A stretch of DNA of 64,000 nt from Octopus sinensis (lineage: Eukaryota). This document shows positions 3,592 to 57,190 of the stretch, piece after piece (position 1 is the first letter of the stretch; each line of letters opens with the position of its first letter). The stretch covers positions 82,460,001 to 82,524,000 of the forward strand of contig NC_043005.1 in the NCBI RefSeq assembly GCF_006345805.1. Reading direction: 5' to 3'. The translations under genes were made by a program, and so were the position numbers. The notes under the pieces are model-generated. The model had not been told where the DNA came from and searched no databases. It saw nothing but the letters and a program-made list of their open reading frames with translations.

Positions 3592-5093
3592 TGATTGATT
3601 GATTGATTGATTCTAGCTTCAGCTTATGAGCTCTGGCCATGCTGGGGCACCGCCATTTGGTGTTGCTACTTGGTTTCACTTCATGGAGGCTTTCTAGCAA
3701 CTGCTATTTGGTGTATGAGAGAGTTCGATGCAGCTGCCCTCATCTGCCCCTCCTGCAATGAAGTTGGTTCATCTGGGACACCTGACAGGAAGAGATCCAG
3801 CTTCATTTTAAAGACATCTGTATCCACCCCATGCAGGTCTCTCAGGTTCTTCGGGAGGATATTGAAGAGCTGTGGGCCTCGGAAGCCCAGGCTATCACAG
3901 AATCTTGTCCTACATCTTGATGGCAGGTTTGGAGTCCTAGGCACCACGCAGTGGCGCCCAGTTCTGGCATTTGCGTAACTCTCGATGCCAAAGTTCAGGA
4001 CACTTCCCTCCAGGATCTTCCAGATGTATATTATGGCATATCTTTCCCGCCTACGCTCCAGGGAATATAAATTTAATCTCTTGAGTCTTTCCCAGTAGCT
4101 TACATTCTGCATAGAGGCTATCTTCTTTGTGTAGCTTCGTTGGATCGCCTCAAGTTCTGTGATCAACTTGACACTGGACGGTGACCATAGCTGAGAGCAA
4201 TAGTCAAAGTGGCTTAGGACAAGTGTCTTCCAGAGGACCATCATGGTTTCTTGTTCTCTTGTTCTAAAGGTTCTAAGAATCCATCCAGCCAGCCGTCTAC
4301 ATTTCATTGTCAGTTTAGCAACATGTACATGAAAGGTCGCGTCGTCACTCATGTGAATACCCAGGTCACGCACTGATTGTGCCTCTGGGATTGCAATCCC
4401 TCCGGGTCCAGTGTATTCATTGGGTATTGCATTCAGTTTTGCATGCTGATAGTATAAAGCTTGAAACTTTCCAGCATTGAACTGCATGCTATTCTTTTCA
4501 GCCCACTTGTATATTTCGTCCAGCTCACATTGCAGGTGTTTAGTGTCCTCAGGGTTCTGTATTGCCTGTGAAATTTTGTATCATCTGCATAACTTGTGAT
4601 CGTGGCTCTCTGCGTGGCTGAGGGCATGTCTGAGAGGGCCATTATGAACAGTAGTGGTCCCAGAACAGTGCCCTGCGGAACACCGCTCACTATTTGTGTG
4701 TTAATGGAGGTGGCCCCATTGGCTACTACCACCTGACTTCTATCCTTCAGAAAGTCATGAAGCCATTCTCCCAGTTTTCCAACTATGTTGAGATCACGCA
4801 GTTTGTGACATATCATTCCATGATCGACTTTATCAAAGGCCTTTGCAAAGTCGAGATATATCACTTCCACATTTGAGTGGTTGAGCAGCCGTCTCAGCAC
4901 CCAGTCATAGTGTTGTAGGAGCTGAGTTAAACAGCTTCTCCCTGGTCGGAAACCATGTTGGGTGTCGGGCAGCAAGTCATTCTCTTCAAGGAAGGTGATC
5001 AGCTTCCTTCTGACTATTCGTTCCATGACCTTGCTGATGTGTGAGGTCAGAGAGATAGGTCTATAGTTCTTGGCTTCCGCTCTGCTACCTCCT
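3592..5093 (-). mobile_element. 5'-truncated CR1-group non-LTR retrotransposon (RT and C-terminus, 3'UTR, (AATC)n tail)
   Basis: ORFs 4433-5119 and 3681-4487 give [43 protein letters not shown] and LERRRERY; tail of tgat repeats at 3592-3611; (TA)n on both sides. Confidence 0.93.
3681..5093 (-). pseudogene. LINE ORF2 reverse transcriptase fragment with a 1-bp frameshift just after YADDTK (~4573)
   Basis: Adding one A in ACAAAATTTCACAG restores K-I-S-Q-A-I-Q-N-P, homologous to KVSQKIQNP in the 54896 copy. Confidence 0.85.
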
Positions 5094-5349
5094 ATATATA
5101 TATATATATATATATACATACATATAAGTACTCATACACAGATATATATATTTATATATTATGTATATAAATATATATATATATATTATATATATATATA
5201 TACATATAAGTACTCATACACAGATATATTTATTTATATTATATATAATATTATATATATATATATATATTATATATATATATACATACATATAAGTACT
5301 CATATACAGATATATATATTTATATATTATGTATATAAATATATATATA

Positions 5350-35504: not shown

Positions 35505-35772
35505 ATATACTGTTGTGTCTGGGGAGAGTCATTTTCTTTGTGCCTTATAACTTAACCCACTCACCGGTAAAATTTCCACTTATTTTTATTTTATATAAAA
35601 TTATAAAAAATATAAAAAATACAAATGAAAATAAGAAATAAGAGGAAACTTTACCGGTGAGTGTGTTAAGTTATAAGGCACAAAAAGAAAATTACTCTCC
35701 CCAGGCACAACAGTATATGCTTCAACACACGACCTCACATAAAGAATATTGCACACCAAATCCCAAAACGAA

Positions 35773-35775
<3 letters not shown>
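35505..35775. mobile_element. Short insert in (TA)n with ~85-bp inverted arms plus a one-sided tail (PLE-like inversion)
   Basis: 35505-35590 is inverted relative to 35628-35718; unique tail extends to ~35775. Confidence 0.65.
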
Positions 35776-35803
<28 letters not shown>

Positions 35804-36671: not shown

Positions 36672-36722
<51 letters not shown>

Positions 36723-36744
36723 TATATATATAAACAGACGGATT

Positions 36745-36791
36745 TTTGTCAGTGAACAGTCGCGGATTTTAGCGACGAAAATTTTGACAAA
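36745..36791 (+). ncRNA. Minimal hammerhead-like motif with G3-C8 core variant
   Basis: TTTGTCA-GTGAACA-GTCGC(GGATTTTA)GCGAC-GAAA-A-TT-T-TGACAAA; 7-bp stem I and 5-bp stem II are perfect. Confidence 0.65.
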
Positions 36792-36879
36792 TTAAACTTA
36801 AATGTTGAAGTGAATCGAACGGCTTTGTGTGTTTCTTAAATGGCTTACAAACACCTTCCACGCTGCAATTGTTTTCGTT

Positions 36880-37192: not shown

Positions 37193-37272
37193 ATTATTAT
37201 TATTTATAGGTTTGTAAAATACGGCACCGTATAAGAAAACCATTCGCACCGAAAGTATATATATATATATAA

Positions 37273-37789
37273 CTAGCAGTATCGCCCGGCGTTGCTCGGG
37301 TTTGTAAGGGAAATAACTATATAAGCATTTTTAGAGAGTTACTTCCTTTATAGATGCAAATTCGGGCTTTCTTAGCCATTTTTGTTTTGGTGTCTTCAAG
37401 CCATGAAGTCGTTGTTCTAAAAGAACGCTGGTCTCCTTGACAACGCATTACGACGTTGATTTCCTTAAACTCCCTTCCCCACAGCTTCACGAGGGAGGGA
37501 AGAAGGGGGAGAAGCAAACACAGGTGCAGGTGTTTGAGCGTGGACGCCAACTCCGCCGCCATCGACACACGAAAAATTAGGCATTAAAATGGAATAAAAA
37601 ATGATGTTAAATTATTTTTAAAATCGTAGACTCATCGTAGACGCGCGCTAATAGCCAGACGGGCTCGATATGAATCACGACTATAAGATACCCGAATTTG
37701 GTTAAACTGCACCTCAAATTGTGGGAAGAGTTAGGAATCTAAATCGAAGGGGACAGACACTCACACAACTAGAGTTTTATATATATAGA
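37273..37789 (-). mobile_element. Non-autonomous Helitron
   Basis: 5'-TC start; 3' hairpin cccgagcaacgccggg followed by CTAG; inserted between A and T; homologous to 43895-44287. Confidence 0.85.
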
Positions 37790-54831: not shown

Positions 54832-56956
54832 TTTTTTTCTAGTTTCAGCTCAGAGCTGCGGCCATGCTGATGCACCGCCGTTTTGTGCTACACTGTTATT
54901 GCGACGAACCTCGTCTAATATGTGGCACTTGGAGAAGAATGGAGTTTGATACAGCTACTCTCATTTGCACCTCTTGCCGTGAGGTAGGTTCATCTGGGAC
55001 TCTTGACAGGAAGATGTCCAGCTTTGATTTAAAAACCGCTACATCTACTTTGTGCAAGTTCCTCAGACTCTTTGGGAGAATATTAAAAAGCTGTGGGCCC
55101 TTGAAACCCAGGCTGTTGCAGAAGCTGGTCCTGAAGTGTGATGGCATTGCTGGGATCTTTGGCACTATGCAGTGTCGTCCCGTTCTAGCATTGGTGTAGC
55201 TTACAATGCCAAAATTTGGCACAATTCCTTCCAGGATCTTCCAGACATATATTACTGCATACCTCTCCCGTCTTCTCTCCAGGGAGTAGAGTCTTAGCTG
55301 TTTCAACCTTTCCCAGTAGCTGAGCTGTTGCAAAGAGACAGTTTTCTTTGTGAATCTTCTCTGGATTGCTTCAAGGTCCGTTGTTAATTTTACACTGATG
55401 GGTGACCATAGCTGTGAGCAGTAATCCAGGCAGCTGAGGACGAATGTCCGCCAGAGGACCATCATGGTTTCCTTATCTCTGGTTCTGAATGTTCTTAGGA
55501 TCCACCCAGCCAGTCGTCTGCACTTTGTCGCCATTCTGGTAATGTGCACTTGGAAAGAGGTATCATCACTCATGTTGATACCCAGGTCCCTCACAGACTT
55601 AGGCTCTGGGATTGAAATTCCCTGTGGACCGGTGTATCCTGTAAGTTTAATATTCAGTTTTGGATGCTGGTAGCGCAGGGCCTGGAATTTTTCAGCATTA
55701 AACTGCATATTATTATCCTCAGCCCATCTGTAGATTGAGTCCAACTCCTGCTGCAGGTGTGCAACATCGCTGGGGTTCTGTATTTTCTGCGAGACTTTCG
55801 TATCGTCTGCATAGCTGGCCAGAGTGGCTATCCGGGCATTTGAGGGCATATCTGAGAGGGCCACTATAAAAAGCAGTGGTCCCAAGATAGTGCTCGGTGG
55901 AACACCGCTCACTATTTGTGTGTTCATAGAGGTGACTCCATTAACCACTACTGCCTGACTCCTATCTTTCAGGAAGTCATGCAACCACACTCCAAGTTTT
56001 CCAGCTATGCCGAGGTCACGTAGTTTGTGGCATATCATACCATGATCCACCTTGTCAAAAGCTTTTGCAAAATCAAGGTAGATTACGTCCACATTTGATT
56101 TGTTGAGTAACTGCCTCAACACCCAGTCATAATGCTGTAAGAGCTGGGTCAGGCAGCTCCTACCTGATCGAAAACCATGCTGGGTATTACTCAGCAAGTT
56201 ATTTTCCTCAAGGAATGCGATTAGTTTCTTTCTGACTATCCTTTCCATGACTTTGCTGATGTGTGAAGTCAGAGAGATAGGCCTATAGTTTTTGGCATCT
56301 GCTCTACTTCCCCCTTTATGTATTGGGCGTATTATTCCCTCCTTCAGCTTGCTTGGCAGTTTGCCATTCGCAAGAAAGCTCTGGTAGAGAATCTTGAGGG
56401 GTTTTGCCAGGGCATGCTTACACGCTTTGAGGAGGATGGCTGGGAAACCGTCTGGACCAGCAGCTGAGTTTGTGTCCACTTCATCTATGGCTAGTAGGAC
56501 ATATTTTTCGCTAATGTCAATACATTCTATTGTAACCGCCTCGCTGGTTATAGGTGAGGCGGCAAAGAAGAACACTGGTTCGTTCACTTGTCTGTGTTCC
56601 AACGGGGTGGTAAAGACATTTTTGAACTGGTCATTCAGCATCTCACTGATCATAGGTGGACTGTCTGTGAGGGAGCCATCCTTTTGGAGGAGGGGTTCTA
56701 TCTTGTAGTGCACTGAGACTGTTTCTTTCGCGTAATGAAAGAAGGCCTTTGGGTTTGATTTAATGTTTTTTATAACCCAGGCTTCTTTGTCTGCTTTGTC
56801 CTTCACATAGGATTGTTGCAGCCTTTTTTCGATCTCCATCAGTGTTGTTTTTAGGCGGAACGTTTCGCTACTTTTGGTATGTTGGTTGAGACGATTTGCA
56901 ACCTTCGTCCGTCGTCTCATGAGGATCTTTCTGTCTCTTGGAATCTTGCTCCTATT

Positions 56957-56958
<2 letters not shown>
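54832..56958 (-). mobile_element. 5'-truncated CR1-group LINE inserted in (TA)n
   Basis: Uninterrupted ORF2 remnant, 3'UTR hairpin, short A tail, TA flanks. Confidence 0.95.
54896..56958 (-). CDS. LINE ORF2 reverse transcriptase, N-terminally truncated (no endonuclease; the ATG called upstream is microsatellite-derived)
   Basis: ~687 codons without a stop: [44 protein letters not shown]. Confidence 0.85.
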
Positions 56959-56990
<32 letters not shown>

Positions 56991-57190
56991 CTTTATTTAA
57001 AAGCAGCAGAAATATGACAAAAGCTGTTACTCAGAGTTTCACTTTCTCGTTCGTCGGACAATTTTAGCGTGAAACTCTGGGTAACAGCTTTTGTTATATT
57101 TTTGCTGCTTTTAAATAAAGCATATTACTCTACCTCTGGTATTTGAGTACTTTTTGTCCACCTTGTCTCACATTTATGTGCTTACTCCGG
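56991..57190. mobile_element. PLE-like insert with 52-bp inverted arms and an HHR-like motif (57024-57061, minus strand)
   Basis: Arms 56991-57042 and 57069-57120; minus strand TTGT-CCGACGA-AC(GAGAAA)GT-GAAAC-TCTGA-GTA-ACAG. Confidence 0.65.

What the first reader, a model, noticed from the sequence alone, without database searches (positions are those of the whole stretch)
36745..36791. Hammerhead motif with an apparent natural G3-C8 swap of the catalytic-core base pair
Seen: perfect stems I (TTTGTCA/TGACAAA) and II (GTCGC/GCGAC) and GAAA in exact HHR register, but the core reads GUGAACA instead of CUGANGA. Positions 3 and 8 have both changed and remain complementary. Known: C3-G8 is a tertiary Watson-Crick pair in the active fold, the double mutant partly rescues cleavage, and consensus searches would miss this variant. 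Stem III is a loopless palindrome (AAUU), implying dimeric activity. The motif starts right after (TA)n and lies ~90 bp before an assembly gap that could hide tandem copies.
Basis: partly seen in the sequence, partly recalled or inferred. Interest (0 to 1): 0.82.

Follow-up and report, generated by a model that had tools for sequence, protein, structure and literature searches.

The report
Swapped-core hammerhead ribozyme in octopus retrotransposon
Thousands of copies of a jumping gene, in what is likely an octopus genome, carry a motif shaped like a self-cutting "hammerhead" RNA in which two normally fixed, paired core letters are swapped (C-G to G-C), while sister jumping genes keep other matched pairs at the same spot; it likely still cuts, slowly (untested), and a standard RNA-family search missed it.

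Summary
The motif is real and the swap is natural. The window holds a solo 5' fragment of a high-copy Penelope-like retrotransposon (Neptune/Nematis type). The family's minimal type I hammerhead has G3-C8 as its standard form: 6,264 genome hits, 93 of the first 100 G3-C8. Eight C3-G8 hits with the same stems all belong to other families. Sister families in this genome, and relatives from metagenomes, carry a homologous motif with C3-G8 or U3-A8, so the 3-8 pair covaries.

The 'exact register' and the AAUU stem III are private to this copy (1 in the genome); the family has a bulged G and AAUAUU (1,192 exact copies). The gap more likely hides the element's tail than tandem copies.

Cleavage is not shown: 69 of 90 copies keep the whole motif, only 1 begins at the cut site, and 5' ends look cap-derived.

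Eight paper searches found natural U3-A8 and engineered G3-C8 only; two key papers were unavailable. This scan noted G3-C8 before in phages and protist elements (unchecked). Verdict: new variant of a known kind.

The parts
36672..36732 (.). (TA)n tract, the likely insertion target
   Evidence: many family copies are flanked by (TA)n
36738..36879 (+). Solo 5' fragment (pseudo-LTR end plus start of the ORF) of a Penelope-like retrotransposon family, cut by the assembly gap
   Evidence: 95% identical to both terminal repeats of the full-length copy L128; 477 candidates
36745..36751 (+). Stem I, 5' strand
36752..36758 (+). Core G3-U4-G5-A6-A7-C8-A9; G3 (36752) and C8 (36757) are the swapped pair; the family's bulged G after A9 is missing in this copy
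36759..36776 (+). Stem II (GTCGC/GCGAC, G10.1-C11.1) with 8-nt loop; the loop differs between subfamilies
36777..36784 (+). G12-A13-A14-A15.1, palindromic stem III (AATT here, AATATT in the family) and U17; predicted cut between 36784 and 36785
   Evidence: cut site inferred from hammerhead numbering
36785..36791 (+). Stem I, 3' strand
36840..36878 (+). First 13 codons of the element's RT-endonuclease ORF (MAYKHLPRCNCFR)
   Evidence: the same start opens a 608-aa frame in L128
36880..36979 (.). Assembly gap; likely hides the roughly 55-nt tail and (TA)n
   Evidence: 3' end positions of 259 copies; inference

Best explanation
The motif is the minimal type I hammerhead in the terminal repeat of a high-copy Penelope-like retrotransposon, its core pair is G3-C8 in nearly all copies, and it likely remains a slow self-cleaving ribozyme that would need a second copy, and perhaps the element's protein, to fold. 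SHOWN: the parent element (repeat - ORF with RT, Cys linker and GIY-YIG endonuclease - repeat, in (TA)n), two motifs 4,361 nt apart in a full-length copy, G3-C8 as the family standard, and C3-G8 or U3-A8 at the homologous place in related families. INFERRED: transcription starts about 22 nt before G3. The palindromic stem III pairs between two motifs (the two repeats of one long transcript, or two RNAs). The G-C pair holds position 8 as the C-G pair does, so cutting after U17 is possible but slow. The element's RT primes inside the first 150-205 nt of mostly uncut, capped RNA, which leaves thousands of short solo copies like this one. The solo copy in the window is a passenger with two private deletions and probably has no function of its own.
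For: Family standard: 93 of the first 100 of 6,264 hits; 60 of 69 copies picked by a downstream anchor; only 8 C3-G8 hits with these stems genome-wide, none of this family. Parent: (GIY-YIG, E 3.3e-05). Covariation: sister families have the same layout (motif, ATG, two 3' ends); 9,481 non-G3 hits against 67 control, first 100 = 52 U-A, 36 C-G, 6 U-G, 6 mismatched (counted by hand). In a 12-row alignment the 3-8 pair is Watson-Crick in 12 of 12 rows (7 CG, 3 UA, 2 GC; the 2 GC rows are one family), stem II is 100% paired and 0 of 500 shuffles reach the covariation score. All other core letters are kept. The engineered C3G/G8C double change partly restores cleavage of a Penelope-element hammerhead, which needs the element's protein (PMC11167929). 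A non-templated G precedes 12 of 19 copies that begin exactly at the putative start (p 1.6e-5 against 18% G).
Against: No cleavage was measured. 69 of 90 copies keep the whole motif and only 1 of 90 begins at the predicted cut, with microhomology to explain it; the U3-A8 family shows 3 of 30 near its cut site, two of them ambiguous by microhomology. The computed dimer (-27.2 kcal/mol) is barely better than two open monomers (2 x -13.3) and worse than a mispaired dimer (-31.3). G3.G8 copies are over-represented (41 of the first 100 of 241 non-C8 copies, against 27 of 292 background changes at C), which may mean that unpaired cores also spread. In vitro insertion of a related element does not need cleavage. 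The shuffle control ignores relatedness, and two rows (m336, m337) are partly misaligned.
Confidence: 0.68

Rival explanations
1. Vestigial ribozyme. The element does not need cleavage; one core change killed the ribozyme, the second arose by drift, and the family spread because uncut RNA is the template anyway.
For: No pile-up of 5' ends at the cut site; excess of G3.G8 copies; cleavage-dead mutants still insert in vitro (PMC11167929); Naiad elements thrive without canonical hammerheads (PMC8557442).
Against: The second change restores exactly the Watson-Crick pair while the other core letters stay intact (roughly 1 in 40 for a random core change; my estimate). Subfamily-level changes within the motif fall in loop II or keep stem I paired. 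The pair is Watson-Crick in all 12 aligned rows. G8 copies lie on old and young backgrounds in the same proportions as U8 copies, so they do not look like a relic lineage.
Confidence: 0.2
2. The fold is selected, but not for cutting: the closed tertiary core in the 5' UTR serves as a binding site for the element's protein, or controls translation or the choice of RT start, so the 3-8 pair is kept while the chemistry is dispensable.
For: The motif lies between the putative start of transcription and the ATG, 60-140 nt before the two RT start sites; stem I is unusually long and perfect (7 bp); templates look uncut; Cervera and de la Pena leave non-cleaving roles open.
Against: The catalytic letters G12, G5, A6, A9, A13, A14 and a cleavable U17 are all kept; hammerhead mutants did not change insertion or product size in vitro for a related element.
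Confidence: 0.1
3. Chance look-alike: a hairpin in a repeat that happens to resemble a hammerhead.
For: No Rfam hit; the literal consensus CUGANGA is not met.
Against: Other families in the genome carry the same stems with a canonical core (L356); relatives with 30-50% identical proteins carry canonical motifs behind the ORF; covariation.
Confidence: 0.02

Closest known systems
Minimal hammerheads (min-HHR) of metazoan Penelope-like elements (Cervera and de la Pena 2014, PMC4209133; main text parts 1-2 of 4 and supplement file 2 parts 1-2 of 3 read)
   Same: Type I; in the pseudo-LTR; one nucleotide between A9 and 10.1; G10.1-C11.1; palindromic stem III; thousands of solo copies; a natural U3-A8 variant
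   Different: G3-C8. None of the 56 representative motifs in their Fig. S3 starts with GUGA. Stem I is 7 bp, longer than the 4-5 bp they describe.
Engineered C3G/G8C hammerhead of the Poseidon element PAc (Frangieh et al. 2024, PMC11167929; parts 1-2 of 4 read)
   Same: Same double change in a Penelope-element hammerhead; two RT start sites inside the 5' part of the ORF that give the 'tail'; uncut RNA as the template
   Different: There the swap is a laboratory control; here it is the natural state of a whole family. Here the ORF starts behind the motif, not inside it, and the protein has the Cys linker that Penelope/Poseidon lack.
Natural core variants of hammerheads (Perreault et al. 2011, PMC3088659; passages read)
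   Same: Natural covariation of the 3-8 pair
   Different: The passages I saw report U3-A8 only.
Neptune / Nematis clades of EN+ Penelope-like elements (Craig et al. 2021, PMC8557442; passages read)
   Same: C-terminal GIY-YIG with CX2-5CxxC linker, partial tandems, inverted 5' copies, tail, (TA)n targets, hammerhead in the repeat
   Different: Non-canonical core; the optional tail is about 55 nt against 30-40 reported; Neptune versus Nematis was not resolved with named references.
Non-LTR retrozymes (bioRxiv 10.64898/2026.07.22.740005; parts 1-2 of 5 read)
   Same: Short non-coding repeats with a type I hammerhead, derived from Penelope-like pseudo-LTRs
   Different: These copies are solo or head-to-head fragments of a coding element and include its first codons; they are not head-to-tail arrays.

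Membership tests
Minimal type I hammerhead of Penelope-like elements | Literal core consensus CUGANGA | tested here: not met
   GUGAACA; no Rfam match
Minimal type I hammerhead of Penelope-like elements | Watson-Crick pair between positions 3 and 8 | tested here: met
   G-C in 60 of 69 copies; 12 of 12 aligned rows paired, three pair types
Minimal type I hammerhead of Penelope-like elements | U4 G5 A6 A9, GAAA, A15.1-U16.1 and a cleavable NUH triplet | tested here: met
   the triplet is UUU
Minimal type I hammerhead of Penelope-like elements | Stems I and II with G10.1-C11.1 and covariation | tested here: met
   (stem II 100% paired; 4 of 5 pairs change on both sides)
Minimal type I hammerhead of Penelope-like elements | Extra nucleotide between A9 and 10.1 | tested here: met
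   Met by the family (G in 67 of 69); absent in the window's own copy
Minimal type I hammerhead of Penelope-like elements | Palindromic stem III | tested here: met
   AATATT in the family, AATT in the window copy
Minimal type I hammerhead of Penelope-like elements | Located in the pseudo-LTR of a Penelope-like element | tested here: met
   L128: motifs at 4065 and 8426 flank the ORF
Minimal type I hammerhead of Penelope-like elements | Site-specific self-cleavage (as a dimer or with protein) | not testable with these tools
   Only contigs were available for RNA-like runs; genomic 5' ends show no pile-up at the cut
Neptune/Nematis-type EN+ Penelope-like element | Single ORF with RT and C-terminal GIY-YIG endonuclease | tested here: met
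   1,042-aa open frame in L123 with YVDD and DKSG motifs by eye; PF01541
Neptune/Nematis-type EN+ Penelope-like element | CX2-5CxxC linker before the endonuclease; two cysteines between GIY and YIG | tested here: met
   CQSNCAVC and YQIKCQEGAC...YIG
Neptune/Nematis-type EN+ Penelope-like element | Partial tandems, inverted 5' copy, optional tail, (TA)n targets | tested here: met
   at least 40 of 90 copies flagged with an inverted arm; 3' ends 113 of 259 at 144-155 and 131 of 259 at 198-208
Neptune/Nematis-type EN+ Penelope-like element | RT phylogeny places it in Neptune rather than Nematis | not tested
   No named reference elements were on hand; the tree holds only unnamed relatives
Non-LTR retrozyme | Non-coding head-to-tail tandem units, each with a hammerhead | tested here: not met
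   Among the first 100 places, 4 same-strand pairs and 10 head-to-head pairs lie within 5 kb (counted by hand); the unit includes the ORF start

The most novel reading that the evidence does not exclude
An animal retrotransposon lineage has fixed the third Watson-Crick state of the hammerhead's catalytic 3-8 pair as a working, deliberately slow ribozyme. With sister families at C3-G8, U3-A8 and C3-G8 with C9, one genome holds a natural series of attenuated ribozymes. The attenuation lets capped, uncut RNA serve as the RT template while a fraction is still cut.
Probability: 0.3. Interest if true: 0.72.

Novelty: new variant of a known kind. Interest (0 to 1): 0.5.

Why it matters
C3 and G8 are treated as fixed letters in hammerhead searches, and G3-C8 is, in the papers I could read, a laboratory control. 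A family with thousands of copies that carries it, beside homologous families with C3-G8 and U3-A8, shows the tertiary pair being kept in nature in three states. It also shows that descriptor and Rfam searches undercount hammerheads in animal genomes, which may bear on Penelope-like clades reported to lack them. What these ribozymes do for Penelope-like elements is an open question. The matched natural series on near-identical scaffolds makes it directly testable: measure the rates and compare them with copy number and with where copies begin. The ribozyme class and its place in these elements are already known, which caps the surprise.

Tried and rejected
Rfam: nothing at gathering score in the window; only microsatellite-driven matches at E <= 10.

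Expression and RNA ends: no RNA holder is listed on record. Four runs were laid, all contigs; they cannot show starts, ends or strand, and showed no splice joint or back-joint at the cut site. This is no evidence either way.

Splicing: the letters before the unit look like a branch point and 3' splice site. No copy joined to any of three donor-like sites among 102 distinct copies, and the commonest 5' end includes the AG. I prefer a transcription start, but use of the acceptor is not excluded.

G3.G8 as a relic intermediate lineage: 36 G8 and 4 U8 copies were fetched. They share no private changes apart from a small loop subgroup. Not supported, not explained.

Metagenome scan with the single protein found nothing; the alignment found 20 loci. 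Six show a readable motif (4 C3-G8, 2 U3-A8), one more reads A3.G8, and the rest show none.

Tree: row L056 is a frameshifted copy of the family and was ignored; family D has no usable ORF and was left out; the root is a midpoint, so the order of changes is not tested.

Tandem-array (retrozyme) reading: rejected, see membership test.

Two papers that may bear on novelty were not held: Lunse, Weinberg and Breaker 2017 (PMC5785218) and Przybilski and Hammann 2007 (PMC1986816). Supplement file 1 of PMC4209133 could not be searched, and the supplements of the bioRxiv preprint were not seen.

Full report
OBSERVATION. It folds with both stems (z -2.94). Rfam finds nothing at gathering score in the window and no hammerhead at E <= 10 around the motif.

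IT IS A REPEAT, AND G3-C8 IS ITS STANDARD FORM. The 147 nt up to the gap have 477 candidate matches in the 2.72-Gb genome, 40 of them scored. A 20-letter pattern with positions 3, 7 and 8 left free hits 6,264 times (control 0), and 93 of the first 100 listed are G3-C8. In 90 copies picked by an anchor downstream of the motif, 69 cover it: 60 G3-C8, 4 G3.G8, 2 G3.U8, 2 U3.U8, 1 C3.C8, none C3-G8. A pattern with C3-G8 and this family's stems hits 8 times. By their downstream letters 4 are family D and 4 belong to other canonical-core families; none is this family. The window's exact form occurs once. The family form, with a G between A9 and stem II and the palindrome AATATT, occurs 1,192 times letter for letter. 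Loose-end consensus letters from runs labelled as two further organisms (C, D) also read GTGAACAGGTCGC; these labels are coded, so the breadth is unknown.

THE PARENT. Copies that extend upstream (516 hits) lead through about 1 kb of simple-repeat-rich 3' UTR to an ORF ending in a GIY-YIG endonuclease. L123 has a 1,042-aa open frame with RT motifs and a C-X3-C-X2-C linker. L128 is a partial tandem: (TA)n, truncated repeat with motif (4065), ATG at 4157, ORF, 3' UTR, motif (8426), (TA)n. The window's copy includes the first 13 codons from 36840. At least 40 of 90 copies have an inverted arm at the 5' end. Among 259 copies (a sample biased toward motif-bearing ones), 113 end at unit position 144-155 and 131 at 198-208. 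These are the partial tandems, inverted copies, tail and (TA)n targets described for EN+ Penelope-like elements, and the linker marks Neptune or Nematis (PMC8557442, passages). The best named protein hit is from Octopus vulgaris (57%) and matches sister family B over long stretches (by eye), so the host is most likely an octopus.

COVARIATION. Families whose C-terminal protein is about 51% identical carry a motif at the same place, followed by a homologous ATG and N-terminus and the same two 3' ends. Family B is CTGATGC (C3-G8, C9) or CTGATGA; family C is TTGAAAA (U3-A8); family D, which has the same layout but whose ORF I saw only in weak fragments, is CTGAAGA. All have a bulged G and a GTNNC/GNNAC stem II. 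A pattern for non-G3 versions hits 9,481 times against 67 for the control; the first 100 are 52 U-A, 36 C-G, 6 U-G and 6 mismatched (hand count). One further family has this family's TGTCA and GTCGC/GCGAC with a canonical core (L356). Of 20 metagenome loci with related proteins, 6 show a readable motif behind the ORF: 4 C3-G8 and 2 U3-A8; one more reads A3.G8; none is G3-C8. In an alignment of 12 motifs (L334 left out for its long loop) the 3-8 pair is Watson-Crick in 12 of 12 rows (CG 7, UA 3, GC 2, the last two being the family form and the window copy). Stem II is 100% paired, and 0 of 500 shuffles reach the covariation score of 0.60, against at most 0.14 for slid partners. The shuffles ignore relatedness and two rows are partly misaligned. 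A tree of 16 protein rows groups the host's families (100/98), with this family beside B plus C. Since all readable outside relatives have C-G or U-A, G3-C8 is probably derived, but the root is a midpoint and the order was not tested.

HOW IT LIKELY WORKS. 53 of 90 copies begin within the first 8 nt of the unit, 23 exactly at its first A. Of the 19 of these that do not continue into the upstream repeat, 12 have a G before it where the template has C or T (p 1.6e-5 against 18% G); in several, that G is also the last letter of the inverted arm. I read this as a transcription start with a cap-derived G (inference; that RT copies the cap as G is recalled). The upstream letters also resemble a 3' splice site, as at the Drosophila virilis Penelope hammerhead, but no joined form was seen in 102 copies. 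In an anole Penelope-like element, RT starts at two sites inside the 5' part of the ORF and uses mostly uncut RNA. Its hammerhead cuts only with the protein present; C3G or G8C kills it and the double change partly rescues it (PMC11167929). That fits here: short cDNAs from the start site to either RT start give the solo copies. The motif can have no stable stem III as a monomer. Two motifs can pair through AAUAUU, though the computed gain is small (-27.2 against 2 x -13.3 kcal/mol, and a mispaired dimer scores -31.3). I commit to a slow, dimer- or protein-dependent ribozyme (0.68). The main argument is that a dead ribozyme is unlikely to regain exactly this pair while keeping every other core letter.

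RESULTS AGAINST. 69 of 90 copies keep the whole motif and 1 of 90 begins at the predicted cut, explained by microhomology. The U3-A8 family has 3 of 30 near its cut, two of them ambiguous by microhomology. Among the first 100 of 241 non-C8 copies, 41 have G8, 42 U8 and 17 A8 (hand count), whereas background changes at non-CpG C are 27 G, 182 T and 83 A (Fisher p 1e-11). G8 is the ancestral-looking letter, but G8 copies do not form one lineage. I cannot explain this excess. Sequencing runs gave contigs only and say nothing on cleavage.

WHAT IS KNOWN. Cervera and de la Pena (PMC4209133; text parts 1-2 of 4; supplement file 2 parts 1-2 of 3) define the minimal motif and report U3-A8; none of their 56 representative motifs has G3. 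Perreault et al. (PMC3088659, passages) report natural U3-A8. PMC3884650 (passage) and PMC8495972 (passage) mention G3-C8 only as an engineered variant. PMC6765202 and PMC10085705 were seen as passages and add nothing on it. The retrozyme preprint (parts 1-2 of 5) used canonical and minimal models. Eight searches returned no report of a natural G3-C8 hammerhead or of octopus Penelope hammerheads; most subscription papers are outside the library, and two relevant papers were not held. Earlier notes of this scan describe G3-C8 in phage hammerheads and, with an added letter, behind protist Penelope-type genes (unchecked here). There are none for this genome or sequence.

VERDICT. Observation confirmed, interpretation partly supported. 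It works like the minimal dimer-type hammerheads of Penelope-like elements and meets every defining feature I could test except the literal consensus; cleavage is untested. New variant of a known kind, interest 0.5.

Noticed in passing
window 35505-35798: Head-to-head fragments of the sister U3-A8 family (family C), 87% identical to L135; no motif was called there by my scan.
   Followed up: partly
window 29364 (+): A canonical minimal hammerhead (CTGACGA, bulged A, palindromic stem III) of another repeat family.
   Followed up: no
L131:6559, L132, L133, L143, L144: Sister family B has C at position 9 (CTGATGC) in many copies, and metagenome locus L335 has U3-A8 with C9: a second recurring core variant.
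   Followed up: partly
L334:4973: Related element from a metagenome with GAAU and a palindromic UAGCUA, that is an apparent U15.1-A16.1 flip in a C3-G8 motif.
   Followed up: no
genome-wide: C8-to-G changes in the family are about four times more common than the background spectrum predicts, on all subfamily backgrounds; unexplained.
   Followed up: partly
L128:4024-4047: Branch-point and acceptor-like letters directly before the unit's 5' boundary, overlapping an initiator-like motif (consensus motifs recalled).
   Followed up: partly
window 54896-56992 (-) and 3681-5131 (-): Open frames of 698, 299 and 232 aa that look like non-LTR retrotransposon RT (label from recall, no family search).
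   Followed up: no
window about 37270-37700: Repeat that begins like a Helitron-type element (recalled pattern); similar sequence occurs in locus L049.
   Followed up: no
P0082: An annotated Octopus vulgaris leucine-rich-repeat protein isoform begins with about 150 aa of the sister family's RT, either exonisation or a gene-model artefact.
   Followed up: no
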